From a virus, in IMG/VR virus record IMGVR_UViG_3300045988_125079, positions 32,001 to 96,000 of that record: a DNA stretch of 64,000 nucleotides. One strand, 5' to 3'. Shown one piece after another: positions 20 through 62,696 of this stretch. Every line of letters begins with the position of its first letter. Position 1 is the stretch's first letter. Position numbers and translations under genes: made by a program. The notes below the pieces were generated by a model. It saw only the letters and a list, made by a program, of their open reading frames with translations. It was not told where the DNA came from and ran no database searches.

Positions 20-95
20 TGGCACGCCTGTTTCGATTCGAACGAAAATCCACTGGGTTTAGAGCCCATTCCTTTACCAATTAAGGTACAGACGC
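20..95 (-). tRNA. tRNA-Sup(CUA), amber suppressor (possibly Gln-derived)
   Basis: 76-nt minus-strand cloverleaf. Acceptor GCGTCTG/CAGGCGT with G1-U72 and U4-G69 wobbles. D arm CCTT-AATTGGTA-AAGG. Anticodon loop C-U-CUA-A-A. T arm TTTCG-TTCGAAT-CGAAA. G73 and CCA are encoded. Confidence 0.8.
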
Positions 96-21585: not shown

Positions 21586-21849
21586 TTACAATAACGAGTG
21601 ACAAGTTAGCCGCTTAGAATTCTCAAACATATCATCAGACCACAGCCAATTCATAGTATCTTCTTTAAGCTGATATCGGTCTTCTCTATATCCACCAATT
21701 GTCACAATTTTCCCGCAGAATTTTTTCATGTCTGAAACAAATCCAACTTTAATATCAGGGCATGGCCCAGATCGCATGCTATATATTTTCAGTTGTTCTA
21801 AATTCTGTTTTACACGCACCCTATCCCCAGGTTTGTAGCGATATTCCAT
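21586..21849 (-). CDS. small beta-barrel-like protein with CxSLL-COOH tail (LTCHSLL)
   Basis: MEYRYKPGDRVRV...WLWSDDMF...LTCHSLL. Start trimmed to the ATG aligned with paralogs. Confidence 0.7.
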   Translation of the reverse strand: MEYRYKPGDRVRVKQNLEQLKIYSMRSGPCPDIKVGFVSDMKKFCGKIVTIGGYREDRYQLKEDTMNWLWSDDMFENSKRLTCHSLL

Positions 21850-22031: not shown

Positions 22032-22298
22032 TTATAATAATGATTTGCAAGATAACAGATTTGCTAAGCCTAAAAACATCTCATCTGTCCATAGGATATT
22101 GTTTTGAGCTTCTTCTATGACATATCGATTTAAAACATACCCCATGACCGTCACAGTTTTCCCCTCAAAAGGTTTTCTTGCTTTAAAAGATCTTTTTACG
22201 ACAACTCCAAAATCTTGGGATAACATCTTATAATTATGACCTTCTTCGAAGCAATCTATCACGCGAACATGGTCTCCGGGTTTATATTGATATCCCAT
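22032..22298 (-). CDS. small beta-barrel-like protein with CxSLL-COOH tail (LSCKSLL)
   Basis: MGYQYKPGDHVRV...ILWTDEMF...LSCKSLL. AAAGGAGAG upstream. Confidence 0.7.
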   Translation of the reverse strand: MGYQYKPGDHVRVIDCFEEGHNYKMLSQDFGVVVKRSFKARKPFEGKTVTVMGYVLNRYVIEEAQNNILWTDEMFLGLANLLSCKSLL

Positions 22299-22308: not shown

Positions 22309-22575
22309 TTACAGCAGTGACCGACACGTAAAAGGATTAGCCAGACCGACAAACATATCATCAGACCAAATAGTGTCTTTATTTGACTCTTCGATCATGT
22401 ATCCGCCCAGTCTATATCCGGAAATCGTTACAACTTTCCCAGCAAGACGTTTTCTTGTCGGCAACGACACTCCGATTGTCAGAATGCTTTTACCAGAAGA
22501 CATATAATGGTTTTTCCCTGGTTCAAATTTATCTATCACGCGAACTCTATCCCCAAGCTTATATTTGTAATCCAA
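22309..22575 (-). CDS. small beta-barrel-like protein with CxSLL-COOH tail (FTCRSLL)
   Basis: (TTG)DYKYKLGDRVRV...TIWSDDMF...FTCRSLL. Confidence 0.65.
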   Translation of the reverse strand: MDYKYKLGDRVRVIDKFEPGKNHYMSSGKSILTIGVSLPTRKRLAGKVVTISGYRLGGYMIEESNKDTIWSDDMFVGLANPFTCRSLL

Positions 22576-24943: not shown

Positions 24944-25210
24944 TCATAATAATGACTTGCATCTAAACTGATGAGTTATTTTTTCAAACATTTCATCGCA
25001 CCAGAGCCAATTACACTCTTTTATTTTATACGATCCAAAAGATGAAATATGGTCAATATGAACTAATTTCCCACGCATTGCCATCATCTCTTCAATAACA
25101 TAATCGCTTTCCTGTTCAGCATATGGCCCAGATTTCATACAATAAAGATGACCCATACTTAAATCTTTACGGACACGAACTGTATCTCCAGGCTTATATA
25201 GATAATCCAT
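24944..25210 (-). CDS. small beta-barrel-like protein with CxSLL-COOH tail (FRCKSLL)
   Basis: MDYLYKPGDTVRV...WLWCDEMF...FRCKSLL. GAGGAG upstream. Confidence 0.7.
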   Translation of the reverse strand: MDYLYKPGDTVRVRKDLSMGHLYCMKSGPYAEQESDYVIEEMMAMRGKLVHIDHISSFGSYKIKECNWLWCDEMFEKITHQFRCKSLL

Positions 25211-25221: not shown

Positions 25222-25482
25222 TCACAAGAGAGACTTACATACAATTCGACCCTCCGGTTCAAACATTTCATCTGTCCAATGCCAATTAATTTCGTTTAAG
25301 AGATATTGACCGCATGAAAATCCCTTGATATGGACAAACTGACCACGGAATTTCATCATATCGTCATTGGTGCTATTTGAACCATACTTGTAATCAGGGC
25401 CAGATTTCATACGGTACGATTGTTTGGTACTCAAATCGGCTCGAACCCGAACTCTCTGTCCAACTTTATATTTGTAATCCAT
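25222..25482 (-). CDS. small beta-barrel-like protein with CxSLL-COOH tail (IVCKSLL)
   Basis: MDYKYKVGQRVRV...WHWTDEMF...IVCKSLL. Confidence 0.7.
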   Translation of the reverse strand: MDYKYKVGQRVRVRADLSTKQSYRMKSGPDYKYGSNSTNDDMMKFRGQFVHIKGFSCGQYLLNEINWHWTDEMFEPEGRIVCKSLL

Positions 25483-25490: not shown

Positions 25491-25763
25491 TCAAAGAAGA
25501 GACTTGCATGTAAGTGGCGTTAACGGTTCAAACATTTCATCGACGAAATAATTGCACTTACCATCTTCGATGATCTTGTACTTTCCATTTGCTTTATGAG
25601 AAATATGAACTATCTTTCCTGCCCAATTTGTTCTAATGCTGTATGTAGCGTAAGTGCTTGCATATCCTGGACCAGACTGCATTTGATATACATGTCCACC
25701 TTCAAGATGCTGCTTTACTTTAACAGCCTGTCCATTCCTGTATTTATATTTACTTTTCGACAT
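25491..25763 (-). CDS. small beta-barrel-like protein with CxSLL-COOH tail (LTCKSLL)
   Basis: MSKSKYKYRNGQAVKV...YFVDEMF...LTCKSLL. Confidence 0.7.
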   Translation of the reverse strand: MSKSKYKYRNGQAVKVKQHLEGGHVYQMQSGPGYASTYATYSIRTNWAGKIVHISHKANGKYKIIEDGKCNYFVDEMFEPLTPLTCKSLL

Positions 25764-25783: not shown

Positions 25784-25876
25784 TTACAAAAGACTCGTAC
25801 AGTAAATAAATTTTGCAGGCACGAGCATTCCATCACGTACTTGTACCGCATCGCCAACTTTATACATACACGCCAT
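25784..25876 (-). CDS. 30-aa mini-protein with CxSLL-COOH tail (IYCTSLL)
   Basis: Hand-translated MACMYKVGDAVQVRDGMLVPAKFIYCTSLL. Lies between the integrase stop and 25763. Below the ORF-track cutoff. Confidence 0.5.
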   Translation of the reverse strand: MACMYKVGDAVQVRDGMLVPAKFIYCTSLL

Positions 25877-26713: not shown

Positions 26714-26968
26714 TTACAGCAAACTTCGACACGAAAACGGTGCAGCACCTTCAAGCATTCCGTCCGACCAGAGATAGTTTCCATCATCTATATCGAGAAT
26801 ATAAAATCCACTTTTGTATCCTACGATTTTAGTAGTCATCCCTTCATAACTCGACATATGTAAACCAAGTCCGCAGTAATTCCCAGGACACGGTCCAGAT
26901 ACCATTGGAAGATTTTTTACCGGAGATTCTATTTTGACTTTTTGTCCAATTTTATATTTGTAATTCAT
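26714..26968 (-). CDS. small beta-barrel-like protein with CxSLL-COOH tail (FSCRSLL)
   Basis: MNYKYKIGQKVKI...YLWSDGML...FSCRSLL. Start trimmed to the ATG aligned with paralogs. Confidence 0.7.
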   Translation of the reverse strand: MNYKYKIGQKVKIESPVKNLPMVSGPCPGNYCGLGLHMSSYEGMTTKIVGYKSGFYILDIDDGNYLWSDGMLEGAAPFSCRSLL

Positions 26969-27034
26969 ACTATACCTTTCTTTCACACTCTCTTCTAATT
27001 GGTTGGAGGCCAGAGAGGAGTTCAAAGCGAGAGG

Positions 27035-28908: not shown

Positions 28909-28929
28909 ATTATCTTCCTCTTATCGTGA

Positions 28930-29165
28930 TCTAAATAGGTCTCAGCTCATTCCAAGCCTGATCGCAGTGCGGATCTTGACTATGTTGTTGAGCGATACAT
29001 CGTAAAATTTCACCCTGCAGTGACGCTGATGACGTCGACTACCTGGAGGATGGCCGTTGCCTCCGCGGTACCTCCATGGCCATCGGCGGCTCGCGGGGCA
29101 CCTCCCTCGTTCTACCTTTGCGAACCAATCGGATCTCCGGTTGGACTGTGGTTAACAGTAATTCA
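28930..29165 (+). ncRNA. GC-rich structured element, copy B (same family as A and C)
   Basis: Helices GATGGCC/GGCCATC and CCGCG/CGCGG. The 3' module is CTACCTTTGCGAA, hairpin CCAATCGG-ATCT-CCGGTTGG, hairpin CTGT-GGTTA-ACAG, then TAATTCA. Confidence 0.4.
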
Positions 29166-29185
29166 TCACGATTTTATTTCAAATT

Positions 29186-29860: not shown

Positions 29861-29877
29861 TTGTTTATCCTTTCTTT

Positions 29878-30840
29878 TTAATCCTGAAATGCATCAATGT
29901 CGTTATAATACGGCCAGCAACTCGAATTACCGACTGCTTCCAATTCTTCAGGATGCTCTTCGTAATACTTGGCGAGATTGCTTTTTGCCGGCACTTTCGG
30001 AGCGGCGCTGCCAGTTACCGTCTTCTTCGACTCTTCTTTTTTTGTCCCGACCAACGGGGTTTTCGGGTACGTAACGGTGGAGCCGTATACCTTACTTGCA
30101 CCCGCGCCTCCTGCAGAATATCCTCCATTGCTTCCAATTGCGTTTGCGCTGTAATTGGTATTTCCGGTCCAATTCCCTGTCGCGCCATATACAGGTGTTG
30201 TGGCAATTTTGTTCTTAACAATCTGGTCTGCGTTTTCGAGAAATCGAGAAGAATCAAAATCACCAACGGTGACATTCACATCCTCTCCTTCATAGATAAC
30301 GTTTGCCTTCAGATCAATAACCCGAACATTATACTCACGCCGCTTGTTCCAAATCATAAAGATTTCATAGCTATCCATCGGCATAGTATCAACGAAACGC
30401 CACTGGTCTTCCATATCTGTAGCACTCGGGGTGACTCCCATATTGACATGAGAATGACCTTGAAAATGCAGACTGTTAAAATCCTCATCGGGCAGCTTCG
30501 CGTACCACATAGAATACTCTCCCCAATCGGTATTCACGGTCGCTCCCGTGACAGTCTGGGGATAAAGCAGAATCTTAGTAATCTGAAAGTGAGTATCATC
30601 GATTCGATTCACCGTGCCACACCACGCGACTTCGGACGAGAAGTGGTTAATCAGAGCGAACATCTGATGATATGCTTCGTAGGTGAAATTCACTGTGATT
30701 GCATTCTTCTGCTTTACTGCAGGAAATTCTGCGCTATATGTAAACTTATCACTGCGGATATAATTCATAGCCATCAGCTGTTCATAAAGCTTCTGTGCTG
30801 CGTTCTTTGCGTACTCCTGTGAAATCTTAATCGGCTTCAT
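29878..30840 (-). CDS. JAB/MPN (JAMM) metallopeptidase with Gly/Ser-rich C-terminal extension
   Basis: HFQGHSHVNMGVTPSATD matches HxH-x7-S-xx-D. A low-complexity tail follows. Confidence 0.75.
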   Translation of the reverse strand: MKPIKISQEYAKNAAQKLYEQLMAMNYIRSDKFTYSAEFPAVKQKNAITVNFTYEAYHQMFALINHFSSEVAWCGTVNRIDDTHFQITKILLYPQTVTGATVNTDWGEYSMWYAKLPDEDFNSLHFQGHSHVNMGVTPSATDMEDQWRFVDTMPMDSYEIFMIWNKRREYNVRVIDLKANVIYEGEDVNVTVGDFDSSRFLENADQIVKNKIATTPVYGATGNWTGNTNYSANAIGSNGGYSAGGAGASKVYGSTVTYPKTPLVGTKKEESKKTVTGSAAPKVPAKSNLAKYYEEHPEELEAVGNSSCWPYYNDIDAFQD

Positions 30841-30854
30841 TTATATCTCCCCTT

Positions 30855-32327: not shown

Positions 32328-32378
32328 AATTTTTCCTCCTATATGTAATTTTTATTTCAGGAGCCCAGATACTGGACA

Positions 32379-32408
32379 TATATAAGGCAGACTTTAACCG
32401 GCCTGCCA
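32379..32408 (-). terminator. rho-independent terminator candidate after the 76-aa gene
   Basis: Minus-sense GGCAG-gccggttaaagt-CTGCC followed by TTATATAT. Confidence 0.45.
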
Positions 32409-32483
32409 GCGGCTGCAATGCTTAGAATATCGTTGTAACCAATAACGATTTACTTTTTATTTGCGATTCTTTTCGTTAATCGT

Positions 32484-32714
32484 TTAACGGGCGTTATCAT
32501 GCTTCGCGACGACCGTGATATAGCATGCATCACCGACGCCCAGAGCAGTCAGAGACATGTTCAGCTTGTCGGGGGTCAGGATCGTACCATCCAGAGTAGC
32601 CTGAGCAGCGCTGAAATCAACGCCATTCTCAGTCAGGATCTCACGGGGAGTCTTAGTAGAAGCAGCGGGAACGGTGTTACGGTTGCCATTGGTAACGAGA
32701 GTAACGAAAGTCAT
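32484..32714 (-). CDS. ThiS/MoaD-like beta-grasp (ubiquitin-like) protein lacking a Gly-Gly end
   Basis: VTLVTNGNRNTV...TPREIL...GVD...ATLDGTIL...LGVGDACYITVVAKHDNAR parallels the ThiS/MoaD pattern (vNGe..v...tv.eLl....vavNg.iv....L.dGD.veiv). GC-rich codons. Confidence 0.55.
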   Translation of the reverse strand: MTFVTLVTNGNRNTVPAASTKTPREILTENGVDFSAAQATLDGTILTPDKLNMSLTALGVGDACYITVVAKHDNAR

Positions 32715-32834
32715 AATATGTACCTCTTTCTAATTTGAAAAATATTTTGAAACGCCAATCAGCGAATCATCTTAATGAATGCCGGACGTATTGCGCTGGA
32801 ACATCCGGCGTGGAACCAATGCTCTGCTTAGCTC

Positions 32835-33272
32835 TTACTCAGCGTCAGCAGTGTGCTCAGGCTCGACCTCGTCATCGATGTTGATAGCTGCATTCATAGC
32901 GGCCTCATCAGCAGCGATGCTCTCCATTGCCGCATCAATCTGAGCCTCGATCTTCTCGCAGTTGACAATGGTCAGACCCAGATAGTCGCGAACCCATGCC
33001 TTGATGGCATCAGGAGTCTTCAGGTCGGCGGGCACCGGACGGCTCAGAACTGCAACCTTCTCACCGGTAACAGAATCGTTTGCAAACACGACACCGTTCT
33101 TGGAGATATCGTCCTTAGAATCGACCATCATGGCGCACACCGGAGTCTTGTCCTTGCCTTCGCCCTTGTACAGAACCAGAGCATCAGGACGGAACTTGGT
33201 GACCTTCTTCAGAGTCTCAACATTGAACTTGGAAGCGACGAACAGGGAATTGAACTTAACAGTTGCCTTCAT
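32835..33272 (-). CDS. hypothetical protein (145 aa, acidic C-terminus)
   Basis: ORF track. ATG start. GC-rich codon usage like the 76-aa gene. Confidence 0.65.
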   Translation of the reverse strand: MKATVKFNSLFVASKFNVETLKKVTKFRPDALVLYKGEGKDKTPVCAMMVDSKDDISKNGVVFANDSVTGEKVAVLSRPVPADLKTPDAIKAWVRDYLGLTIVNCEKIEAQIDAAMESIAADEAAMNAAINIDDEVEPEHTADAE

Positions 33273-33502: not shown

Positions 33503-33730
33503 TTATAATAGCGACTTGCAACAAATCTGATCGGAACATGGTTCCCATAGCCAATTAGGACACCATGAAATATGTATTTCACCATGTGAAAATGGATCGA
33601 TCATATCAACAATAATCTGTCCTTCTTCGTCAACAGCCACAATTTTCCCTCGCTTATGATAGTTGGTATCAGTGGCCGAGCATTCATTTCCAATTCTTAC
33701 CATCTGTCCGATACGAAATTTATATTCCAT
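33503..33730 (-). CDS. small protein with CxSLL-COOH tail (ICCKSLL)
   Basis: MEYKFRIGQMVRI...WLWEPCSDQICCKSLL. Confidence 0.7.
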   Translation of the reverse strand: MEYKFRIGQMVRIGNECSATDTNYHKRGKIVAVDEEGQIIVDMIDPFSHGEIHISWCPNWLWEPCSDQICCKSLL

Positions 33731-33739: not shown

Positions 33740-33985
33740 TCATAGCAAAGACTTACATTCAAACGAAGGGCAGCGATCAAAATAGTCTGGTGATTTTCGC
33801 CATCGATACCCTTTCTTTAGCGGCGGATAACCAACAAGTGACACTTCATCTTCTAAAAGTTCCACAGTGAGTGTTCCATTAGGTGCAATGTCGACTACTT
33901 TGCCAAGTTTTCTTTGTGCCTCATCGCACCACATGTCATCAATATCAGTCGTTCTGACAAGATCCCCAATTTTAAATTTAGTCAT
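33740..33985 (-). CDS. small protein with CxSLL-COOH tail (FECKSLL)
   Basis: MTKFKIGDLVRT...DRCPSFECKSLL. Confidence 0.7.
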   Translation of the reverse strand: MTKFKIGDLVRTTDIDDMWCDEAQRKLGKVVDIAPNGTLTVELLEDEVSLVGYPPLKKGYRWRKSPDYFDRCPSFECKSLL

Positions 33986-33997: not shown

Positions 33998-34234
33998 TCA
34001 CAACAACGATTTACAAACAAATGGCTTTGTTTTTACCTTCACCCAATTATCAGCAGTGAGCCACCATTCATAACCAGCCCCTACGTCTTCTCCGCTGCCG
34101 ATATCGGGCATTGCCTCAAGCATTTCAACAACGATATAGTCAACGTCTACTGCCTTCACGATTCCTTTCTTCCCGACATTCCCAGGAGCCCACATATGGG
34201 GAGCCGAAGCGACAATATCACCAACCTTAACCAT
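33998..34234 (-). CDS. small protein with CxSLL-COOH tail (FVCKSLL)
   Basis: MVKVGDIVAS...VKTKPFVCKSLL. Confidence 0.7.
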   Translation of the reverse strand: MVKVGDIVASAPHMWAPGNVGKKGIVKAVDVDYIVVEMLEAMPDIGSGEDVGAGYEWWLTADNWVKVKTKPFVCKSLL

Positions 34235-36872: not shown

Positions 36873-37544
36873 TTACTCCTTATCAAAGATATCCGTGTAC
36901 TTCGTGTACAGTTTACCGTTGTGGAAGTAAGTATTGTAATCGCACTGTTCAATATACCACCAGCGTTTCTGATGACCGGCCTTCAGGAAGTCATGCAGAT
37001 GATAAGTTGACTCGTAGTTCTCGTCCACACGCTGCCGGAACGAAAGCTCGTCAATCTCATCTGACGTTTCGACGTAATCAGCGATTCCATTGATTTCGTC
37101 CTCAGTCATATCGTCATCCACAACAAAGACCACTCGAACGATTTCGTTACCTCGACGACAAACATTCTCAATCTCATCTGTCGTATGCAGGTGATATACA
37201 ACACGGTCGAACTTATCAAACGGAAACAACATAATCTCGTGATTGTTTTCTGCATCAAAGTAACTGGTATGCAGCTCAATCTTGCGAAAAGAACGCCAAC
37301 ACGTCTCGAAAAAGCCACGCCACCATGCCTGATGCTCCCACCAGTGGAAAAGTGGATCGCCTCCTCCAGAAACAGACACCCAGTTGCAATCGTTGCATTC
37401 GTTATGAAGAACTTGCCACAGCTGAGCATAAGAAGAATACTCCCCTGTCGGTGTCATCTTGAGCTTGTTATTACGGACGATACACTCAGGGCAGCTGTAA
37501 TGGCAGCCGAAGTTCGTGATAATACTGAGATACTTGTCAGTCAT
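36873..37544 (-). CDS. small radical-SAM enzyme (activase/QueE-like size)
   Basis: FGCHYSCPEC matches CX3CX2C. SGGGDPLF is a glycine-rich SAM-binding motif. 223 aa. Confidence 0.7.
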   Translation of the reverse strand: MTDKYLSIITNFGCHYSCPECIVRNNKLKMTPTGEYSSYAQLWQVLHNECNDCNWVSVSGGGDPLFHWWEHQAWWRGFFETCWRSFRKIELHTSYFDAENNHEIMLFPFDKFDRVVYHLHTTDEIENVCRRGNEIVRVVFVVDDDMTEDEINGIADYVETSDEIDELSFRQRVDENYESTYHLHDFLKAGHQKRWWYIEQCDYNTYFHNGKLYTKYTDIFDKE

Positions 37545-37948: not shown

Positions 37949-38353
37949 ACAGAGAGGAGGATTTAACCATGTACACCATCAGCGAGGAGCAAGCGGCTTA
38001 CCAATGCGCAATACTCGGTCGCGTCAGTAGATACAACACATAAGCGATTAGGTCTCTTATGGTGTCCATCCTCAAAGGCTGCCCTTTTCAAATTCACTCT
38101 CCGATACTCTGGGCACCGAGCATCTATGCCACTTTCGCAGGCAGTGCCAAATTCGCCTACTCATAATAGAGCCATGCACATCCACTGTGGCGGGTAGCTA
38201 CTCCCGTTGCATCATGGTTATTATTTTCGGTCAGAGCGTTATGGGTGTGTCAGAGGGGGAGTATGATCACCCACGGTGGAATTGCGCCACCCCAGCGACC
38301 GCGCACTACACTACGCTGCCGCATCGAACCTAGCTTTGCGGCTTGCACCGCTA

Positions 38354-38737
38354 TGGACCCGGTGGGATTCGAACCCACGTCCAAAACTAATACTCGATTA
38401 CAATTTTCTTACGCAATAGCCAGCATTTAGAATTTTGAAAAGGAATTCATGCCGCCGACACAGCAACCTTAGGGACGTAACGGTTGTTACATCACTCCAC
38501 CACTCGGTTTTGACGTCCGAGAACGCTAGTGTTTCTTACCGTTTACATCGGGTTCCGGGATTTATTCTTTGAACCGTCAAGCATTTACCTGCCTATCAGG
38601 ATGCTGTTTTGGGCACGGCATCAAGCCGCGCAACGATAACTGTTGTTGTTAGCGTTTATTTGTTTTTTGCCTCGTAAGGTGATGGCCGACCTGCGAATTG
38701 TAATTTTTCTTAGCCCTGTCGAAAACCTTTCGGGCCC
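38354..38737 (-). ncRNA. ~384-nt structured RNA closed by a tRNA-like acceptor stem and T arm
   Basis: 5' GGGCCCG pairs with 3' CGGGTCC, giving a G3-U70 pair. T arm GTGGG-TTCGAAT-CCCAC. A long-range 9-bp helix joins ATTACAATT and AATTGTAAT. Internal helices include GGACGT/ACGTCC and GTAAC/GTTAC. The 5' end follows the AUAU leader. Confidence 0.35.
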
Positions 38738-42066: not shown

Positions 42067-42321
42067 TTACAGAAGCGACTTGCAATAAAGCGGCTCTTTA
42101 TGACGTAGAAATTCGTATTGTTCACTATATAAACAATCTTCAATATATCCGTCTTTAAATTTCATATGTGGACACCGATCGTTATAATCCTCATCCAAAT
42201 CATATTTGTCCCAGCCAAGAAATTCACATTCTTGTTCATTATAATAATCAAGATTTCTACAATGAAGTCTGAATATTGAACCTGGAATCCAAATTTCTTC
42301 TTGCGCCGTTACTTTCGTCAT
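42067..42321 (-). CDS. small protein with CxSLL-COOH tail (LYCKSLL)
   Basis: MTKVTAQEEIW...RHKEPLYCKSLL. The body is unlike the YKxGD family. Confidence 0.65.
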   Translation of the reverse strand: MTKVTAQEEIWIPGSIFRLHCRNLDYYNEQECEFLGWDKYDLDEDYNDRCPHMKFKDGYIEDCLYSEQYEFLRHKEPLYCKSLL

Positions 42322-46462: not shown

Positions 46463-46742
46463 GTAATTTGAACCTCCTTTCTGATGTGTTCGTTCGCTTA
46501 CACGACCTTTAAGATACTTACGAAATTCAATTTTGAATCCGTGCACTGACTCGCGATCGAAAAACGTTTTCACCCTCGGGCGGAACGCTTGCTCTTACTG
46601 CTACGCTTTTTCAACGTGCTTTTAAAACTGGGCTTGGAACCAGCACGGTTCTGCAGAACTCGTGGCCGCATTACACTCCGGCACTATTGCACCGGAGCGT
46701 CCTCTGCGTTATTCATCGCAACAATCGAAATAAACGTCATAA

Positions 46743-54592: not shown

Positions 54593-54621
54593 TTGATATT
54601 TTGCATATTTAGGGGTATAAT
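54593..54621 (+). promoter_or_regulatory. sigma70-type promoter (TTGATA-17-TATAAT) for the plus-strand block
   Basis: TTGATA at 54593-54598, a 17-nt spacer, TATAAT at 54616-54621. Confidence 0.55.
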
Positions 54622-56790: not shown

Positions 56791-57264
56791 ATGTATAAAA
56801 TATTCGCTCCACGCGGCGGTGGCCGCACCTATCAAATATGTAAATACGCGATTGAAAACGACTGCGACATTATTGTGCCCGCTCTGAATTCTATCCAACA
56901 CATTATAACGATCATAATGCAAATCTGCTATGATTCTAATGGTGAATATGAATATATTGATGACAATAACAATTTGCGTGATATCAAAATTAAAACACCA
57001 AACGACACGATTGTGATCCACGTTTTTGACGCTGATAGTTTCCGACATGCACAATTTGGCCCCGCCAGAAGAAAACCCGTGGTGATCGACGATATTGATG
57101 AATGTATGAAGCGTATTATAAATTCCGACTTGATTGAAGCTATTTCTATAGCTACATATGACCCATCTGATGTCGCACTTCATCCTAAAATCACAGATGC
57201 AGATGATCCAGCTATAGGAAGACCGGCACTGCAACCGCAACTGACCTGTAGGAGTTTACTATGA
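56791..57264 (+). CDS. protein with P-loop-like N-terminus and CxSLL-COOH tail (LTCRSLL)
   Basis: APRGGGRT...VVIDDID...LTCRSLL. AGGAGG upstream. Confidence 0.65.
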   Translation: MYKIFAPRGGGRTYQICKYAIENDCDIIVPALNSIQHIITIIMQICYDSNGEYEYIDDNNNLRDIKIKTPNDTIVIHVFDADSFRHAQFGPARRKPVVIDDIDECMKRIINSDLIEAISIATYDPSDVALHPKITDADDPAIGRPALQPQLTCRSLL

Positions 57265-57605
57265 CAACAGATATTTTTGGAACGAGTAATTTTAAAAAGA
57301 ACGAAAAGGAAATACTAGACCTGGCTCGACATAAATTATATGCAGAACTTAGTGAAGAGCGTGGACGTAAAGTAGATTCAGTAACGATTTATGTTGATAT
57401 GGATCGCAGATATATACATTATGACTGGGATTTAACTTTTACTCTTAATCCGAAATATTTTATCAAAGTCGGAATTATATCTGGGTTACGGATGGAAATT
57501 ATTGAAGGCGACGCTGCAGAACTAATTTATAAGCGATATCTTGAATTGGTTAGCAAGTATACAATGCAATCTAAAAAATCGTTTGTTTGTAGGAGTTTGC
57601 TATGA
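57261..57605 (+). CDS. protein with CxSLL-COOH tail (FVCRSLL)
   Basis: The ATG sits inside the previous gene's tail codons (cTATGA), with AGGAG 7 nt upstream. Confidence 0.65.
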   Translation: MTTDIFGTSNFKKNEKEILDLARHKLYAELSEERGRKVDSVTIYVDMDRRYIHYDWDLTFTLNPKYFIKVGIISGLRMEIIEGDAAELIYKRYLELVSKYTMQSKKSFVCRSLL

Positions 57606-58021
57606 ATTACACTGTAACCGCCAGAGTCGCAATGCTGACTTCTGTAAATTATAATGCCAAAAATGGAATATACGTCCCATTAAACGATAATAACATGGTA
57701 TGGGTCATGCCATTCAAATCGTACCGTGATTTTAGAGCATGGTATTTAAGAGCAGACGATAGTTCAAAAATATTTCATCAGATATGGTTTGGACCCGGAT
57801 ATACCTATGATTCCATGAGTGATGTAGCGACACGGCTTGCAAAAGAATTTGATCAGCTTAACAATATGGATTATTACCGACTTGTTAATAACGATAGTAT
57901 TTTAGATTTGATACATCCTATCAAGCTTGACTATACGTGGACTTTCGATCATGTCGTAAAAATCACAGCGCCATGGTATGAACGAAATAAAAAGAATCTC
58001 GTATGCTACAGCCTATTGTAA
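57602..58021 (+). CDS. protein with CxSLL-COOH tail (LVCYSLL)
   Basis: Same ATGA-type coupling as 57261. Confidence 0.65.
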   Translation: MNYTVTARVAMLTSVNYNAKNGIYVPLNDNNMVWVMPFKSYRDFRAWYLRADDSSKIFHQIWFGPGYTYDSMSDVATRLAKEFDQLNNMDYYRLVNNDSILDLIHPIKLDYTWTFDHVVKITAPWYERNKKNLVCYSLL

Positions 58022-58047
58022 ACGTAGTGGGGAAGGAACTTCGTAGA

Positions 58048-58320
58048 ATGACACGAGAAGAAACTATAAAGTTAGTTGCTGAGAGCATATTTAGCGATCC
58101 AAGTATTAAGGCAACTCAACGGCAAGATGATCTTATTAAAGTAATAACATGTATGGCTGTGAATGGTGTTGACCATGTTTTGTATAAAGATAAAAAATAT
58201 AGACTTGATTGCGACGCAGGTTGGTTATTGTCTGACTTTATTATAAACGATTTTTATACATATCCGAAACCAATATACATAAATAAACAGCAGCCGCTAA
58301 TTTGCAGGAGTTTATTATGA
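58048..58320 (+). CDS. protein with CxSLL-COOH tail (LICRSLL)
   Basis: ORF track trimmed to MTREETIK, which has GGGGAAGGAA upstream. Confidence 0.6.
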   Translation: MTREETIKLVAESIFSDPSIKATQRQDDLIKVITCMAVNGVDHVLYKDKKYRLDCDAGWLLSDFIINDFYTYPKPIYINKQQPLICRSLL

Positions 58321-59075
58321 ATAGAATTGATTTTCAAAATGGATCGTAGATTCAAACGATAGAAACCAATCACGACGAATCTCAGGATGAAGTAATTAAT
58401 GTTTGGTCTGCAGATGGCAAACCAGTTAGAATCTGTCGTGAAAGCAATCCGAGCATTCAAGTGGTAAAACAATGTGCTGCAGATTATATAAAAAGATGGG
58501 CTGAAGTAAAACATTCAATTTCGACAATGCCTGAAGTATCAGACAAGTTTGACTATGAGTTTTATAACTACTCCCCTTCTCCGACTATTAATACGATTGA
58601 TTTATTTAATCGAGAATATGAAATGATAGTAAATGCAGAACGACAATCACATAAAGAAGAGGACGATATGAGAATTTTATTTGTAAGTCCAGAAAAATAC
58701 GATGCCGTATGTTCTTGGTATGATAATTTAGACACTGTACAAAAACACCGTAAAGTAATCGTAATATGCAAATCGCCGGACGAATTCCGTGAAAAGTTTG
58801 ACTATAGTAAAATGAATGCACAGTGTACTATGTTCTACTTTGATGAATATCTTGGATTGGCTAAGTCGTTTGAATATTGCAAATTATTTACTAAGTTGTA
58901 TGGAGAAGCTGATGTTAGATACATCTGTGGAAATAAAATGCGACAGATAAATATAGATGATTTAATGTGCCGCAATACATTTGATTGGTTTAAAGAGTTT
59001 TCTGTCGTGCCAGAATGCTTGGAAGATCTTATTCGAAATAGTAAGAGAGCCTTCGTTTGTAAGAGTCTATTATGA
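58317..59075 (+). CDS. protein with CxSLL-COOH tail (FVCKSLL) and in-frame TAG at 58347-58349
   Basis: The coupled ATG at 58317 (ttATGa) gives MNRIDFQNGS-TAG-IQTIETNHDES..., in frame with ORF 58461-59075. Confidence 0.55.
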
Positions 59076-59111
59076 TGTTTAATATAAAAAGCATTAAAGA
59101 GGTGAACACAT

Positions 59112-59300
59112 TTGGAACCCATCAGAGCATACGATCTCATCAACGGTTACTTTACACCAGAAATTAAAACTAATTCGTTTGTAATCGACAGAGCTAAAAA
59201 TGTACAAGATGAAATTGAAGATTTACGAAAACAGCTTATTGCTGTACAACGTGAGTTAGAAAAAATGAAGAAGCCCTTCCGTTGTGAATCGCTTCTATAA
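59112..59300 (+). CDS. coiled-coil protein with CxSLL-COOH tail (FRCESLL)
   Basis: TTG start 5 nt after AAAGAGGTGA. Confidence 0.55.
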   Translation: MEPIRAYDLINGYFTPEIKTNSFVIDRAKNVQDEIEDLRKQLIAVQRELEKMKKPFRCESLL

Positions 59301-59311
59301 GGAGGTCATTT

Positions 59312-59590
59312 ATGAAAGAAGATAATTTTTCAAAACAGGATATTTATAATATTGGATTCGCCGTAGTTGATGCGGTACGCGATTACGCAGTTACATATGA
59401 AAATATTATTGACGCAATTCAGATTTATGCTGAATGGCAAGAGTTAATTGGTGGTGCCTCGCTCCACGATACACTCTGGATGGATGATGGAACGCCAATG
59501 TCTCCTTCTTTGACGCGATATTTGTATTGTAAGCTATACGGGCTGAAAGAATATGATAACAACGACGAGGAGGATTATGGCGATGAGTGA
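59312..59590 (+). CDS. hypothetical acidic protein (92 aa)
   Basis: ORF track. AAGGAGG upstream. Confidence 0.6.
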   Translation: MKEDNFSKQDIYNIGFAVVDAVRDYAVTYENIIDAIQIYAEWQELIGGASLHDTLWMDDGTPMSPSLTRYLYCKLYGLKEYDNNDEEDYGDE

Positions 59591-59759
59591 TCGCAAGCGT
59601 AATAAGGTTTCGAAGAGTACATATATGCGCGAAGCTCGTAAACAGCGCATGATTGAAAACCAGTTTATGCACGAAGTTGAGAAGGCTCAGGAAGCCGCGC
59701 AGCCCAAACATGATAAGTGGCAGCGTAACAAACGGCGCGAATGGGATGATGAAGAGTAA
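59577..59759 (+). CDS. small basic protein (60 aa)
   Basis: ORF track trimmed to MAMSDRKRNK, which has GAGGAGG upstream. Confidence 0.5.
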   Translation: MAMSDRKRNKVSKSTYMREARKQRMIENQFMHEVEKAQEAAQPKHDKWQRNKRREWDDEE

Positions 59760-59767
59760 GGAAGGAG

Positions 59768-60139
59768 ATGTATCGCAGCATGGATAAAGAGCCTAAAAAG
59801 CCGGGCGGAGAGAATGATACAGAGCGAGACGATATTCAGGAGATCCGTGTCAACTCTATTCCGCTGATGGTGCTTATCGCTGGTGTTTTAAGTTCCGTTG
59901 ATTTTGTTGATTGGATGTTTACTATCGCAGAAATGCTGGTTGTATTCGTGCTTACATATCAGATTCTAGGGCGTGTGCTCTTTACTGCTCTGGTGGTTAC
60001 GCCCATTTTGGTTGTGTTTATCAGCAGGTGTTTGGCGGCCTACGATGAGATCACGTATAGCGACGACGATATGGGCGGCGATAGCGAAGATAACGATGAT
60101 GACCATTTTAACGACCACTGGAACAATTTGATTCATTGA
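59768..60139 (+). CDS. membrane protein (2-3 TM) with acidic C-terminus
   Basis: Hydrophobic segments IPLMVLIAGVL, MLVVFVLTYQILG and VVTPILVVFI. Confidence 0.6.
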   Translation: MYRSMDKEPKKPGGENDTERDDIQEIRVNSIPLMVLIAGVLSSVDFVDWMFTIAEMLVVFVLTYQILGRVLFTALVVTPILVVFISRCLAAYDEITYSDDDMGGDSEDNDDDHFNDHWNNLIH

Positions 60140-60152
60140 GGAGTGATATTAT

Positions 60153-62696
60153 TTGTTTAGTCCACCATTATATAGCGTACTAAAATTTAACTTGAATTAT
60201 ATCGTTTCTCATAACTATAATTTTAAACTGACACCAGAAGAGATGGAGCAGTATAAAGTCTTGCAGGGTGACGATATGCTGTTCAGACAGATTCGGCTCA
60301 TTTCCGACGACTAGAATAAATTCCAGCGCTTTATTATCTTTGTTGATGCAACAGGCGGCCAAAACCACCCTGATGCTATCGATCATTTAGTAGAGCATGG
60401 ATTCAAATTTAATGGTCAAAAATATCTGTTCTGTGAACGTAGTGCAAGTATGGTTCGTCAGAGTATGTTGAGTTTTGTTGAGCGACATATCTACCCTGAA
60501 CTCGATCGCCGTGTAAGCATGGAACTGGATTTTTCTGAGACACCAACTGTCCTGAGCAAGTATTATGCATATCGTGGTTTGATGCTGAGCAGCTGCCACT
60601 GTCTGGAGAACTGGTATCCCAAAATGATTGTTGTTCCAGATTATATGACAACGATCAAGAATCAGTGGATCGAGTACCTGGTAGACAAAACTGTGACGTT
60701 TAATGACCGCAAAACAGGCAAAGAACGTACCTGGACCCAGAAAGATATCGCCACAAAAACAGTTGACATTGATATCAACGCCTTTGATGGTGCTGGAATA
60801 TGCCACCCAAGTATCATGCGCGAATTTGAAAAGCGTATCGGTACTTCTGAACGGATGAATAGCTTGATTCTACGTGCTCCATATATCAAGGGTTGCTTAC
60901 ACGAGATTGATTACGAGCGTTTTTTTGAAGAGAACGGCGTTACAAAAATCAAGGATATCTGGGGTATGGAATATGATGTAACACCTGGCAGTGAACCAAT
61001 GATTATTATTACTGCTTCAATGTACAAGGGTCTCAAATATTTCAAGAAAACTGGTACCTATTCTGACTGGGAGAGATACTGGGAACTCTTCAAGAAGTAC
61101 GATAACTGCCTTGGTGTAGCCAAATGGAACTTTACGCTTGAACAAGAACCGCTTTCCACCCGTAGCAACTATCAGGTTATTCAAGACCTACAGCTTGACA
61201 ATGAGTCTTTTAAGCATCTAGCCGACGACAGCATTACCTGGTATCAGAATATTGTCAAAGGCGACCCGATTTATACATACTGCTTCCTTGGTTTACTTGC
61301 CGAGAACAATGACCCGATGAATCATTACATGGCTGCTGCCCTGCGTAATCCAGTGATGGTAAAAGAGCCGGCAATCAAAGATTATATTCACTCGCTGCTT
61401 GATAAATATCGCAATGAGATGAAGTGCGGTCGGCTTTGGATGAATGCTACTTTTAAGTTCTGGGCTCCTGACCTTATCGCACTATTGCAGCATATTGGTG
61501 GCCTTCCTGTGACTGGCTGCCTTGAAGACGGTGAGTTCTACAGTTTCGATCGTCGTGGTGTGATGGAAGGAGACCGCTTAATTGAGCGCAATCCCCATAT
61601 CTCTGTTGCTGAGCATGTAAAGGCCAAGGCCGTAGACAACGAATACACCCATAAATACTGCAGCCATCTTCAGAATGTTGCTATGGTGAATATCAAATCC
61701 ATCGTGGCTTCCAGACTTAATGGTTCAGATTTTGACGGCGACCTGGTTTTAATCATCGACAATCCGCTGATGATGAGTGGTGTTCCTGATAATATCCCCA
61801 TTACACTTGATGTTGAAGATAAGATCACTGCGTTAGCAGAATGTGATATTGTGAAGAACAAAGTTGCTTGCACCATTCGTGGATTGAAAAGTTCTATTGG
61901 TGAGATCTCAAACTACGCAACTGCATACCATAATAAGGTTCCGACCATGGAAAAGACCAAAAAGCTCTATCACGATAATATTTCGCTTTTGAGTATCTGC
62001 AACGGAAAAGCTATCGATTATGCCAAAACCGGTGTTCTGTATCCGATCCCGCGTAATGTAGCAGCTTATGGTCGTCCTCTACCCTACTTTATGAAGTATG
62101 CAGGTCCTTACTACGCACGTTTACATAATCTCAGCAAGGCACATAGCAACATGAACCTGCTTTGCATGAGTCTGGAGCGTTGGGAGCGCGGTGTACGGTG
62201 GCGCAAAGAGCCGGCAGGCAGCTTTGATTGGCATATCATGTACGACCCAGAGGTCTCCTATGACCAGGCAGTCTTTGATGAGATCGAAGCCATTTTCTTG
62301 GATTTCAACAAATGCCGCAAGGAACAGCTTGAGTTCGAAAAGAAATGCCGCAACTGGCAATTATATCATAAGGACATCGAGTCGCGTATTACCAAAGAAG
62401 AAGCCAAGACATATGAAACGAACTGGCAGGCGATCTACAATGTCTACCGTAACAAGTGCAAGCTGGTGTGTCCTGATGTGAGAGAGCTGGCGAATATTCT
62501 TGTAGTGCTTTGCTATGAGAAGTATCCAAATAAATTTAAGAAGTTCTTGTGGCACATGGCCGGCGCTGGTGTGGTCGAAAATATCAAGCCGGTTCTTGTT
62601 CAGTTACCAGTTCACGACCCGAACGGTGAGTATGAATATCTTGGCCAGCGATATAGTTTGGCTGAACCGAAAACTTATGAAGCGAGGGTGAAATAA
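60153..62696 (+). CDS. YonO-like single-subunit RNA polymerase (DPBB, DFDGD), with in-frame TAG at 60312-60314
   Basis: NGSDFDGDLVLII resembles the universal NADFDGD Mg-binding loop. ORF 60450-62696 extends upstream in frame through one TAG to a TTG at 60153, which lies 9 nt after GAGGAG. Confidence 0.6.

What the first reader, a model, noticed from the sequence alone, without database searches (positions are those of the whole stretch)
56791..59300. Plus-strand array of six CxSLL-tailed genes where the tail codons double as the next gene's RBS and start
At three junctions (57261, 57602, 58317) the tail is written TG(T/C)-AGG-AGT-TT(A/G)-(C/T)TA-TGA. The Arg-Ser codons form AGGAG, and the last Leu codon plus the stop contain ATG (cTATGA or tTATGA). 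The tag therefore also encodes the Shine-Dalgarno and start codon of the downstream gene.

Most minus-strand family members use AAR/CGN and TCN codons for the same positions and lack this coupling. The bodies in this array (P-loop-like APRGGGRT...VVIDDID, 114-aa, 139-aa, 90-aa, ~250-aa and a 62-aa coiled coil) look mutually unrelated.
Basis: seen in the sequence. Interest (0 to 1): 0.7.

Follow-up and report, generated by a model that had tools for sequence, protein, structure and literature searches.

The report
Shared C-terminal tag on phage proteins
A large gut-bacterial phage ends at least 18 small proteins of about ten unrelated kinds with the same five-residue tail (Cys-x-Ser-Leu-Leu), and in one gene array spells that tail with codons that also form the ribosome-binding site and start codon of the next gene; the tail behaves like an address label whose reader is still unknown.

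Summary
Eighteen ORFs in the window end in C-x-S-L-L, where about 0.001 are expected.

At 57261, 57602 and 58317 the tail is written TGY-AGG-AGT-TTR-YTA-TGA. This gives AGGAG, a 6-nt spacer and an ATG that overlaps the stop.

Related phage contigs keep this arrangement. All 39 distinct AGGAG-in-tail junctions have a start codon overlapping the stop.

Ser and Leu codons differ among tails within one genome, so selection acts on the peptide. The tail always sits at the very C-terminus, and in gene 1 it follows a variable, low-confidence linker.

It occurs in genome-wide "dialects":
- A (this window): basic, K-K-P-[LF]-x-C-[KRH]-S-L-L.
- B: acidic, N-E-C-x-C-[ED]-S-L-L.
- C: F-x-S-L-[LI], with no cysteine.

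Dialects agreed between two loci about 30 kb apart in 39 of 39 genomes, although genes around and between them recombine freely across dialects.

My reading is an address tag read by a co-evolving, probably phage-encoded partner. I favour a bipartite degron, but weakly. Thiol chemistry, a DNA-level repeat and a link to the neighbouring E1/JAB/ubiquitin-like block are disfavoured.

The dual-coded junction is ordinary translational coupling used opportunistically. The tag system itself appears undescribed.

The parts
56791..57264 (+). Gene 1, 157 aa. Folded domain of about 110 aa, then a disordered linker and the tail LTCRSLL.
   Evidence: ORF. AF2 gives pLDDT 86-92 for residues 11-80 and 43-51 for residues 111-157. 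Orthologues keep the tail while the linker varies in length and sequence.
57247..57264 (+). Junction 1: TGT AGG AGT TTA CTA TGA. SD AGGAG at 57250-57254; ATG of gene 2 at 57261-57263, overlapping the stop.
57261..57605 (+). Gene 2, 114 aa, tail VCRSLL.
   Evidence: The first possible start is the overlapping ATG. The N-terminus is conserved in relatives.
57588..57605 (+). Junction 2: TGT AGG AGT TTG CTA TGA. SD at 57591-57595; ATG of gene 3 at 57602-57604.
57602..58021 (+). Gene 3, 139 aa, tail VCYSLL with a TAA stop. The junction is not overlapped.
58048..58320 (+). Gene 4, 90 aa from ATG 58048 (105 aa if it starts at ATG 58003), tail ICRSLL.
   Evidence: GGAAGGAA lies about 10 nt upstream of 58048 (read from the sequence).
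58303..58320 (+). Junction 3: TGC AGG AGT TTA TTA TGA. SD at 58306-58310; ATG of gene 5 at 58317-58319.
58317..59075 (+). Gene 5, 252 codons, with an in-frame TAG at 58347-58349. Tail VCKSLL.
   Evidence: The TAG is kept in three relatives (L024, L043, L051) while the flanking codons diverge in frame. A fourth homologue, L034, has GAA at that position.
59112..59300 (+). Gene 6, 62 aa, TTG start preceded by GAGGTG 7 nt upstream. Tail RCESLL.
21586..21849 (-). SH3-like tail gene (TCHSLL).
22032..22298 (-). SH3-like tail gene (SCKSLL).
22309..22575 (-). SH3-like tail gene (TCRSLL, spelled CGG TCA).
24944..25210 (-). SH3-like tail gene (RCKSLL).
25222..25482 (-). SH3-like tail gene (VCKSLL).
   Evidence: Homologous domains elsewhere lack the tail.
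25491..25763 (-). SH3-like tail gene (PLTCKSLL).
25784..25876 (-). Mini-ORF of about 27-30 aa: an SH3-like N-terminal stub (MYKVGDAVQV) plus the tail YCTSLL.
26714..27025 (-). SH3-like tail gene (SCRSLL). The start is uncertain and is probably the internal MNYKYK.
33503..33730 (-). Tail gene (CCKSLL), weakly SH3-like, followed by a hairpin.
33740..33985 (-). Tail gene (ECKSLL).
33998..34234 (-). Tail gene (VCKSLL).
42067..42321 (-). Tail gene with an unrelated body (YCKSLL).
20..95 (-). tRNA with anticodon CUA (amber suppressor), needed to read gene 5 through its TAG.
   Evidence: ARAGORN; Rfam tRNA match at 58.6 bits.
54593..54621 (+). Best sigma-70-like promoter match (TTGATA-17-TATAAT, 11 of 12), upstream of PhoH, the array and the RNAP gene. 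This may be the start of the plus-strand operon.
   Evidence: The number of matches is not above the shuffle expectation, so this is only suggestive.

Best explanation
WHAT IT IS
The window comes from a 100-150 kb phage of gut Firmicutes that encodes a YonO-type single-subunit RNA polymerase. This phage lineage appends one short C-terminal peptide to many small accessory proteins of about ten unrelated body types. In gene 1, the case examined, the peptide follows a flexible linker. The peptide is a short linear motif anchored to the free C-terminus, in other words an address tag.

HOW THE TAG IS BUILT (inferred)
The tag has two parts.
- An invariant S-L-L-COOH end, shared by all dialects.
- A dialect-specific upstream half: basic K-K-P-[LF]-x-C-[KRH] in this window, acidic N-E-C-x-C-[ED] in sister phages, and F in place of C in a third group.

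All tails of one genome share one dialect, yet the phages exchange neighbouring genes. I therefore infer that one partner reads the tag, that it co-evolves with the tag, and that it is probably phage-encoded.

My favoured outcome (probability about 0.3-0.35) is controlled engagement or turnover of an early accessory-protein arsenal. This would work like the bipartite ssrA tag: the invariant hydrophobic end is taken by a conserved machine, and the dialect half is bound by a phage-specific adaptor.

Position x of the tag is free, and Ser and Leu have six codons each. Choosing Arg=AGG, Ser=AGY and last Leu=YTA with a TGA stop writes AGGAG-N6-ATGA inside the tag. A ribosome finishing one tagged protein would then restart on the next gene.

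This gives a compact, co-translated array. It also leaves a nearly identical 18-nt boundary at each junction, which may help cassettes shuffle between phages (inferred).
For: Protein-level selection: 18 tails, against 0.001 expected, spelled with varied codons.

Strictly terminal: 18 of the 19 C.SLL pentamers in the window are at a C-terminus.

Flexible attachment: gene-1 orthologues show linker insertions and deletions with the tail kept, and AF2 gives pLDDT 43-51 for residues 111-157.

Add-on nature:
- The SH3-like body occurs without the tail as the N-terminal domain of larger proteins in Enterococcus and Brevibacillus phages.
- Among the 150 best family representatives, 37 short ones carry a tail and 113 do not.
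- One body family carries whichever tail belongs to its genome's dialect.

Dialects:
- 39 of 39 contigs agree between the RNAP-proximal array and the locus about 30 kb away.
- The upstream half is basic in dialect A and acidic in B.
- Dialect C has no Cys in any of its six array genes.

Exchange across dialects: RNAP, the AAA ATPase, the 689-aa gene, NAMPT, integrase and terminase reach 95-99.7% identity between dialects. This implies co-infection of common hosts, and hence a reader that is not a shared host protein.

Dual coding: exact junction sequences, first possible start codon, and 39 of 39 AGGAG tails with an overlapping start codon in window and relatives.

Mosaic arrays: membership and order vary among about 25 gene families.

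Early context: the array lies between PhoH and the RNAP gene, downstream of the best sigma-70-like match. No tails were found in the sampled structural genes.
Against: No reader was identified.
- No PDZ, protease or other peptide-binding Pfam domain turned up in the roughly 50 window proteins tested.
- Only 64 kb of a 100-150 kb genome, plus flanks, was examined.

The co-segregation analysis excludes some genes but cannot separate linkage from function for the rest. Those left are the E1/JAB block, a 550-aa head-region protein and, largely, the major capsid protein.

Nothing shows degradation. The tail does not match any known degron, and the phage's own tmRNA tag (ANNNSYRCAA) is different.

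Dialect concordance could partly reflect shared descent of two deep lineages rather than co-evolution with a reader.

Translational coupling is inferred from sequence only. The promoter match is no better than chance in number.
Confidence: 0.45

Rival explanations
1. Capsid or virion cargo-loading peptide. The tail docks the tagged proteins inside the procapsid, on the HK97-fold shell, scaffold or portal, so that a varied set of effectors is injected with the DNA. This would parallel the T4 internal proteins or encapsulin cargo.
For: [quoted passage not shown] That is the same logic as a hypervariable array of unrelated proteins with one shared tag.
- Encapsulin targeting peptides are C-terminal, sit on linkers and contain a conserved G-S-L. 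The native M. xanthus peptide PLTVGSLRRGG resembles window tails such as PLTCKSLL (PMC7925596).
- The major capsid protein and a 550-aa head-region protein largely partition by dialect: 61 of 65 and 66 of 66 nearest neighbours.
Against: - The tagged genes lie in early or middle regions, upstream of the phage RNAP gene. None lies among the structural genes sampled.
- The motif is fixed at the exact C-terminus, whereas encapsulin peptides tolerate trailing residues.
- The scaffold-like 180-aa protein, the portal and the terminase are exchanged between dialects.
- The peptide resemblance is short and could be chance.
Confidence: 0.2
2. Substrate or recognition signal for the neighbouring phage E1 (ThiF) / JAB / ubiquitin-like / 490-aa block. 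For example, the tail's C-terminus might be adenylated, or tagged proteins might be the targets of Ubl conjugation.
For: - The block at 27300-33272 sits among the minus-strand tail genes.
- Its genes partition by dialect, perfectly for E1, JAB and the acidic 128-aa protein (52/52, 52/52 and 53/53 nearest neighbours) and nearly so for the others (48-51 of 51-52), while the flanking genes do not.
- The E1 resembles the Cap2 E1 domain (PADLOC 7e-19; PDB hits). From my own knowledge, Cap2 acts on the disordered C-terminal tail of a non-Ubl protein.
Against: - The same Ubl-p490-JAB-E1-RT block occurs in more distant phages whose neighbours, SH3-like proteins included, have no tails.
- Contig L148 has lost E1, JAB and RT yet keeps seven tails.
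- The block has its own Ubl, with a conserved K-x-D-N-A end, as the obvious E1 substrate.
- Physical linkage explains the co-segregation.
- No charge-swap signature appears between dialects.
Confidence: 0.07
3. Cysteine chemistry: a Cys-to-C-terminus thiolactone (as in AIP peptides, Cys plus four residues), lipidation or prenylation, metal binding, or disulfide formation.
For: - Cys at -4 is invariant in dialects A and B (188 of 188 and 294 of 294). Dialect B adds a second invariant Cys at -6.
- The C+4 spacing equals that of staphylococcal AIP rings such as CSSLF and CDFLL (own knowledge).
Against: - In dialect C every tail of the array has Phe in place of Cys, and gene-1 orthologues switch LTCRSLL to AAFRSLL.
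- A CaaX box needs Cys at -3.
- No AgrB-like enzyme or prenyltransferase was found among the proteins tested.
Confidence: 0.05
4. A nucleic-acid element (cassette boundary, recombination site or plain RBS) whose translation yields the tail only as a by-product.
For: - The overlapped junctions share a nearly identical 18-nt sequence.
- The arrays are mosaics in which one upstream gene is followed by different downstream genes at exactly this boundary.
Against: - Twelve minus-strand tails and three plus-strand tails encode the same peptide with different codons (TCN or AGY; TTR or CTN; TAA or TGA) and with no shared DNA motif.
- The peptide is always in frame and terminal.
- The dialects differ at the amino-acid level.
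Confidence: 0.04
5. Docking onto a conserved host hub through a C-terminal hydrophobic peptide, such as the beta sliding clamp or a host PDZ or tail-specific protease.
For: - S-L-L-COOH fits the class I PDZ ligand rule (S/T-x-hydrophobic-COOH).
- It partly resembles the end of the clamp-binding motif QL[SD]LF (own knowledge).
- S at -2 and L at -1 and 0 are nearly invariant in dialects A and B and predominant in the noisier dialect C set.
Against: - Phages that recombine with one another, and so share hosts, would not need opposite-charge dialects for one conserved host site.
- The Gln and Leu of the clamp motif are absent.
- Bacterial PDZ proteases are mostly extracytoplasmic, and the tagged proteins have no signal peptides (read from the sequences).
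Confidence: 0.1

Closest known systems
T4-type internal proteins with a capsid-targeting sequence (CTS) in hyperplastic loci
   Same: A variable array of unrelated small phage proteins that share only one short terminal address peptide (PMC3012670).
   Different: - The CTS is N-terminal, is cleaved by the prohead protease and acts late.
- Here the tag is at the exact C-terminus, the genes look early or middle, and no packaging is shown.
- Lineage-specific dialects and dual coding with the next gene's RBS are not known for the CTS.
Encapsulin cargo targeting peptides
   Same: A short C-terminal peptide on a flexible linker, with alternating hydrophobic residues and a conserved Ser-Leu (GSL). 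It binds an HK97-fold shell. PLTVGSLRRGG compares with PLTCKSLL (PMC7925596).
   Different: - Encapsulin peptides are followed by basic or Gly residues and are not anchored to the terminal carboxylate.
- One to a few cargo proteins use them per operon, not 18 or more.
- No encapsulin is present here.
ssrA (tmRNA) degradation tag with the SspB adaptor (own knowledge)
   Same: A bipartite C-terminal tag. The invariant hydrophobic end is read by the protease and the upstream half by an adaptor. It works on any protein it is attached to.
   Different: - The sequence is unrelated (…YALAA).
- ssrA is added co-translationally by tmRNA rather than encoded in each gene.
- The phage's own tmRNA encodes ANNNSYRCAA, not the tail.
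- Degradation is not shown here.
Translational coupling through ATGA stop/start overlaps with the Shine-Dalgarno inside the upstream gene (own knowledge; common in phage operons)
   Same: AGGAG, a 6-nt spacer and an ATG sharing TG with the TGA stop.
   Different: The overlapped sequence is also a conserved functional peptide. The same 18 nt therefore recurs at many junctions, and the free residue x is fixed as Arg wherever coupling is used.
Class I PDZ-binding motifs (own knowledge)
   Same: Ser at -2 and a hydrophobic residue at 0, with a free carboxylate. The alternating pattern suggests binding by beta-strand addition.
   Different: No PDZ protein was found. Conservation extends to -4, -6 and -8.

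Membership tests
Translationally coupled overlapping genes (ATGA type) | The start codon of the downstream gene overlaps the stop codon of the upstream gene. | tested here: met
   ATG at 57261, 57602 and 58317 shares TG with the TGA stop. At 57261 and 57602 it is the first possible start in the ORF.
Translationally coupled overlapping genes (ATGA type) | A Shine-Dalgarno sequence lies 5-10 nt upstream of the start, inside the upstream coding sequence. | tested here: met
   AGGAG with a 6-nt spacer at all three junctions. All 39 AGGAG tails in window and relatives have an overlapping start codon.
Translationally coupled overlapping genes (ATGA type) | Downstream translation depends on upstream translation. 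| not testable with these tools
   This needs reporter fusions or ribosome profiling.
ssrA-like C-terminal degron | A C-terminal tag ending in small or hydrophobic residues that is sufficient for degradation by an AAA+ protease. | not testable with these tools
   The hydrophobic LL-COOH end and the flexible linker are compatible. No degradation data exist.
ssrA-like C-terminal degron | Sequence similar to the tmRNA-encoded tag of the system. | tested here: not met
   The phage tmRNA tag is ANNNSYRCAA, whereas the tails are …C[KR]SLL.
T4 CTS / encapsulin-type cargo-loading peptide | A short terminal peptide shared by otherwise unrelated cargo proteins. | tested here: met
T4 CTS / encapsulin-type cargo-loading peptide | The cargo is found inside the capsid or shell and is co-expressed with shell genes. 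| tested here: inconclusive
   The genes lie upstream of the phage RNAP gene and outside the structural module, and no tails occur in the structural genes sampled. No virion proteome is available.
CaaX prenylation box | Cys exactly at -3 (C-a-a-X), with Cys essential. | tested here: not met
   Cys is at -4, and it is replaced by Phe throughout dialect C.
AIP-type thiolactone peptide | An essential Cys forming a ring with the C-terminus, made by AgrB from a precursor with a C-terminal extension. | tested here: not met
   There is no extension after the motif, Cys is dispensable in dialect C, and the carriers are proteins of 60-250 aa.
Beta-clamp-binding motif QL[SD]LF | Gln at position 1 and Leu at position 2, then [SD]-L-F. 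| tested here: not met
   Position 1 is C or F and position 2 is K, R, H, E or D. Only S-L-[LI] matches.
Class I PDZ ligand | [ST]-x-hydrophobic-COOH at the extreme C-terminus. | tested here: met
   S at -2 in 500 of 534 distinct tails, and L, I or V at 0.
Class I PDZ ligand | A cognate PDZ-domain reader in the same compartment. | tested here: inconclusive
   No PDZ hit in the roughly 50 window proteins scanned. The rest of the phage genome and the host were not examined.
Integron-like or attC cassette array (DNA-level boundary repeats) | A conserved DNA repeat or structure at every cassette end, independent of coding. | tested here: not met
   The tails are spelled with different codons and stops, and only the peptide is conserved.
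Substrates of an E1/JAB (Cap2/Cap3- or Bil-like) conjugation system | The tag co-occurs with the E1/JAB genes across genomes. | tested here: not met
   The block is present without tails in L248 and L250. Tails are present without E1/JAB in L148.

The most novel reading that the evidence does not exclude
A phage-encoded, orthogonal protein-addressing code. Each phage lineage uses its own dialect of a C-terminal tag: an invariant S-L-L-COOH end plus a basic, acidic or Phe-type upstream half. Through a matching phage-specified receptor, only that phage's own hypervariable set of small effector proteins would be handed to one machine, for timed destruction, for loading into the particle, or for assembly on a hub. 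On this reading the tag also acts as the cassette boundary: its codons carry the next gene's RBS and start, so new genes can be slotted in and are at once both tagged and translated.
Probability: 0.3. Interest if true: 0.85.

Novelty: new variant of a known kind. Interest (0 to 1): 0.62.

Why it matters
If the tail is an address tag with lineage-specific dialects, it marks a whole class of otherwise unannotatable phage ORFans as one functional set. That set is about 15% of the genes in this window, and 37 of the 150 best family representatives carry such a tail.

It would also give a simple handle for finding their common partner: a 7-10-residue peptide with natural positive and negative controls (dialects A, B and C).

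It would be a new example of how phages organise and exchange accessory or anti-defence genes. It could also serve as a small portable tag for directing proteins during infection of gut Firmicutes.

The dual-coding junction shows how a functional peptide, a ribosome-binding site and a start codon can share 18 nucleotides. It also shows how that constraint fixes an otherwise free residue (x = Arg).

Tried and rejected
- Near-identity search of the region against GenBank phages: no match.
- Literature searches for CxSLL, CESLL/CRSLL/CKSLL/CHSLL, phage E1/JAB terms and shared C-terminal motifs: nothing relevant to this tag.
- Pfam, PHROG and PADLOC scans of the tail proteins gave no informative hits. 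The only ones were sub-threshold SH3-like matches and two weak PHROGs of unknown function.
- Thomasclavelia phage TR-TP1, the closest cultured relative (41% RNAP identity): no tails.
- Host identification: a single 8.5-kb contig binned into an Oscillospiraceae MAG, too weak to use.
- Reader candidates by co-segregation. Exchanged between dialects, and so rejected as dialect-specific readers:
  - RNAP, the AAA ATPase, the 689-aa protein, NAMPT, PRPP synthetase, integrase, terminase, portal and the scaffold-like protein;
  - the conserved 92-aa protein 59312-59590 and the membrane protein 59768-60139.
- The E1/JAB/Ubl block was pursued as a reader and largely rejected.
- A tmRNA link was rejected. 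The tag sequence differs, and no tmRNA was detected at the syntenic site of the dialect-B contig L148.
- A charge-swap column analysis between dialects gave no signal.
- Sequence searches of p490 and the JAB-like protein against the PDB: nothing.
- Structure comparison of gene 1: only weak matches.


Full report
**1. What the window is**

The window is part of a large phage genome from human-gut metagenomes. It carries:
- a YonO-type single-subunit RNA polymerase at 60450-62696 (Pfam RdRP; 24% identical to SPbeta YonO and 41% to the RNAP of Thomasclavelia phage TR-TP1);
- a PhoH-like gene, two integrase-type recombinases and a retron-like reverse transcriptase;
- an NAD-salvage cluster;
- 12-13 tRNAs and a tmRNA.

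More than 200 related loci were recovered from IMG/VR contigs of 70-150 kb. The only host hint is one short contig binned into an Oscillospiraceae MAG.

**2.

The six plus-strand ORFs between 56791 and 59300 all end in C-x-S-L-L. Twelve further ORFs on the minus strand do the same.

Of 19 C.SLL pentamers in every six-frame ORF of 30 aa or more, 18 sit at the exact C-terminus. Composition predicts 0.001 such tails among 118 genes, and 50 shuffles gave a mean of 0.04.

Each contains AGGAG, a 6-nt spacer and an ATG that shares TG with the stop codon.

At 57261 and 57602 this ATG is the first start codon possible. The tail's own TGT-AGG creates an in-frame TAG three codons upstream.

The minus-strand tails use TCN for Ser in 10 of 12 cases and never AGG-AGY. 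Their stop codon is usually followed at once by GGAGG or GGTG and a start 6-12 nt later.

**3. The dual coding is conserved**

I pooled the window and its relatives into 385 distinct tail/junction contexts. AGGAG spanning the x-Ser codons occurs in 39 of them.
- 36 have an ATG overlapping TGA that opens at least 40 codons.
- 2 are the gene-5 type, interrupted by TAG.
- 1 has an overlapping GTG.

Fisher p is about 2e-26, with the caveat that the contexts are related by descent. The arrangement occurs at many different gene pairs and also in the cysteine-free dialect (TTT AGG AGT TTG TTA TGA).

Wherever coupling is used, the free residue x is Arg, or Glu (GAG-AGY) as a weaker variant.

**4. The tail is a peptide, not a DNA repeat**

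Within one genome the same peptide is written with TCN or AGY, with TTR or CTN, and with TAA or TGA.

In gene 1 the tail follows a linker that varies in length and sequence among orthologues while the tail is kept. AlphaFold2 gives pLDDT 86-92 for residues 11-80 and 43-51 for residues 111-157.

The six plus-strand bodies are mutually unrelated by BLASTP. Seven or eight minus-strand members are paralogues of one SH3-like family. That SH3-like domain is widespread without the tail.
- In Enterococcus and Brevibacillus phages it is the N-terminal domain of larger proteins.
- Among the 150 best representatives in a 1.8-billion-protein library, 37 short proteins carry a tail and 113 do not.

TR-TP1 has no tails. 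The tail is therefore a lineage-specific add-on.

**5. Dialects**

The tails fall into three types.
- Dialect A (this window): K-K-P-[LF]-x-C-[KRH]-S-L-L, basic.
- Dialect B: N-E-C-x-C-[ED]-S-L-L, acidic, with a second invariant Cys.
- Dialect C: F-x-S-L-[LI], with no cysteine in any of six array genes.

For 39 contigs I had both the RNAP-proximal array and a second locus about 30 kb away. The dialect was the same at both sites in all 39.

The same body family carries whichever tail belongs to its genome. Gene 1, for example, ends LTCRSLL, YVCASLL, CVCDSLL or AAFRSLL.

Genes next to and between the tagged loci are exchanged across dialects. RNAP reaches 99.7% identity between dialects, and the 689-aa gene, integrase, terminase, AAA ATPase, NAMPT and PRPP synthetase reach 95-99%. 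The window itself is a mosaic, with an A-type array beside an RNAP gene 99-100% identical to that of B-type genomes.

Three inferences follow.
- The phages meet in common hosts.
- Concordance is maintained by selection rather than by gene conversion, because the codons differ.

**6. What the tail is not**

*Cysteine chemistry.* Thiolactone formation, lipidation, metal binding and a CaaX box cannot be the general mechanism. Dialect C replaces Cys with Phe, and the Cys sits at -4.

*A DNA-level boundary element.* This is contradicted by the codon diversity.

*A link to the neighbouring E1/JAB/Ubl block.* The tail genes flank a block at 27300-33272. It holds:
- a ThiF/E1 resembling the Cap2 E1 domain;
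- a protein with an H-x-H-x7-S-x2-D motif (seen by eye, no Pfam hit);
- a 490-aa protein;
- a small protein that looks ubiquitin-like by eye (no family match) and ends K-x-D-N-A plus a variable extension;
- a retron-like RT.

The block's genes partition by dialect, perfectly for E1, JAB and the acidic 128-aa protein and nearly so for the rest. However, the same block occurs in more distant phages whose neighbours, SH3-like proteins included, have no tails. One B-dialect contig has lost E1, JAB and RT but keeps its tails. I therefore treat the block as a separate system.

*The phage tmRNA.* It encodes a different tag.

*A peptide-binding domain in the window.* No PDZ or protease domain was found in the roughly 50 window proteins scanned.

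**7. Most likely mechanism**

*Shown.* The tail is a strictly terminal, protein-level motif with genome-wide dialects on about ten unrelated protein bodies; in gene 1 it sits on a flexible linker. Three junctions, and many in relatives, embed an SD and a start codon in the tail.

*Inferred.* The tail is an address tag bound as an extended strand with its free carboxylate. Alternate positions -6, -4, -2 and 0 are the conserved ones.

The invariant S-L-L-COOH half could be taken by a conserved machine. The charged, dialect-specific half could be taken by a phage-specified adaptor, as in the ssrA/SspB arrangement (own knowledge).

I favour controlled turnover or engagement of an early accessory-protein set, at a probability of about 0.3-0.35.
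- The array lies between PhoH and the RNAP gene.
- It sits behind the best sigma-70-like match (suggestive only).
- No structural gene sampled carries the tail.

Cargo loading into the capsid is the main rival, at about 0.2.
- It is supported by the analogy with T4 internal proteins, which are diverse defence proteins sharing only a capsid-targeting sequence (PMC3012670).
- It is also supported by a resemblance to encapsulin targeting peptides: PLTVGSLRRGG against PLTCKSLL, with a conserved GSL (PMC7925596).
- It is weakened by gene position and by the strict terminal anchoring.

**8. Array architecture**

Arrays upstream of the RNAP gene are mosaics of about 25 gene families, with varying membership and order. 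Identical upstream tails are followed by different downstream genes, and the break falls exactly at the junction.

Because the junction is triply constrained (peptide, SD and start codon), it is almost identical at the DNA level wherever it is used. It could therefore serve as microhomology for cassette exchange. This is an inference and was not tested.

**9. Amber read-through**

Gene 5 (58317-59075) has an in-frame TAG at codon 11. The TAG is kept in three relatives while the surrounding codons diverge in frame, and a fourth homologue has GAA there.

Three further observations point the same way.
- The window encodes a tRNA with anticodon CUA.
- In the conserved 92-aa gene after the array, a Trp codon (TGG) is TAG in 61 of 86 copies.
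- One relative has in-frame TAGs inside its terminase and portal ORFs.

This phage group evidently reads some TAG codons. Stop-codon recoding is a known kind of phenomenon in gut phages (own knowledge). It is needed here for the fifth gene of the array to carry its tail.

**10. Verdict**

The dual-coded junction is a neat but ordinary case of translational coupling. The more interesting object is the tag itself: a phage-wide C-terminal address peptide with co-varying dialects.

I found no description of it in the literature. By analogy it belongs with the terminal targeting and degradation tags, as a new variant. Its reader and its consequence remain unknown.

Noticed in passing
window 58347-58349; tRNA at 20-95 (-); window 59312-59590; L216 8187-11524: Amber read-through in this phage group.
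- A conserved in-frame TAG sits in array gene 5.
- The phage encodes a tRNA with anticodon CUA.
- In the conserved 92-aa gene a Trp codon (TGG) is TAG in 61 of 86 copies across relatives.
- Relative L216 has in-frame TAGs in its terminase and portal ORFs.
- TAG ends only 9 of 118 called genes.
   Followed up: partly
window 27300-33272 (-): Conserved block of six to seven genes:
- an acidic 128-aa protein;
- a retron-like RT (27676-28908);
- a ThiF/E1 (29186-29860);
- a protein with a JAB-like H-x-H-x7-S-x2-D motif (29878-30840, no Pfam hit);
- a 490-aa ORFan;
- a 76-aa protein (32484-32714) that looks ubiquitin-like by eye (no family match) and ends K-x-D-N-A plus a variable extension (R, LAA, TGMN or VVM);
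- a 145-aa protein.
The same Ubl-p490-JAB-E1-RT core occurs in more distant phages (L248, L250), where the small protein ends exactly at …DNA or …KNA. This may be a phage-borne Ubl conjugation system with a non-Gly C-terminus.
   Followed up: partly
window 38351-38737 (-): Phage-encoded tmRNA (Rfam 92 bits) with an unusual tag, ANNNSYRCAA, which has Arg-Cys before the terminal Ala-Ala. No tmRNA was detected at the syntenic site of the dialect-B contig L148.
   Followed up: partly
window 46628-46708 (-): Type-P5 twister ribozyme match above the Rfam gathering score (45.9 bits against 37.6).
   Followed up: no
window 59300-60450, compared with L004 and L024: There is a recombination breakpoint between the array and the RNAP gene. 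The window's RNAP is 99-100% identical to that of dialect-B genomes. Its array and left arm match dialect-A contigs whose RNAP is only about 69% identical.
   Followed up: partly
window 14016-20062 (-): NAD-related cluster: isochorismatase/nicotinamidase-like protein, NAD synthetase, a phosphatase-like protein, NAMPT and ribose-phosphate pyrophosphokinase. It looks like an NAD-reconstitution module of the kind phages use against NAD-depleting defences (own knowledge).
   Followed up: no
window 25784-25876 (-): Mini-ORF of about 27-30 aa holding only the first strand of the SH3-like domain (MYKVGDAVQV) joined to a full tail (FIYCTSLL). It is either a decayed paralogue or a minimal tagged peptide.
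   Followed up: no
L085-L128 type loci (e.g. L085 10001-12465): A different, tail-less phage lineage shares only the 689-aa gene and the adjacent 128-aa gene with the window, at 92-94% identity. This two-gene module moves between otherwise unrelated phages. Neither protein has a Pfam match.
   Followed up: partly
window 14595-15794 (-); 265-1026 and 1433-1987 (-): A NUMOD/I-HmuI-like homing endonuclease is present in only one of the 80 loci searched around the 689-aa gene. Two paralogous ORFs lie among the tRNA genes. They look HNH-like by eye and were not scanned against any family library.
   Followed up: no
window 36873-37544 (-): A 223-aa protein with an N-terminal C-x3-C-x2-C motif (GCHYSCPEC), suggesting a radical-SAM enzyme. 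It has no Pfam hit and matches only phrog_17662, of unknown function.
   Followed up: no
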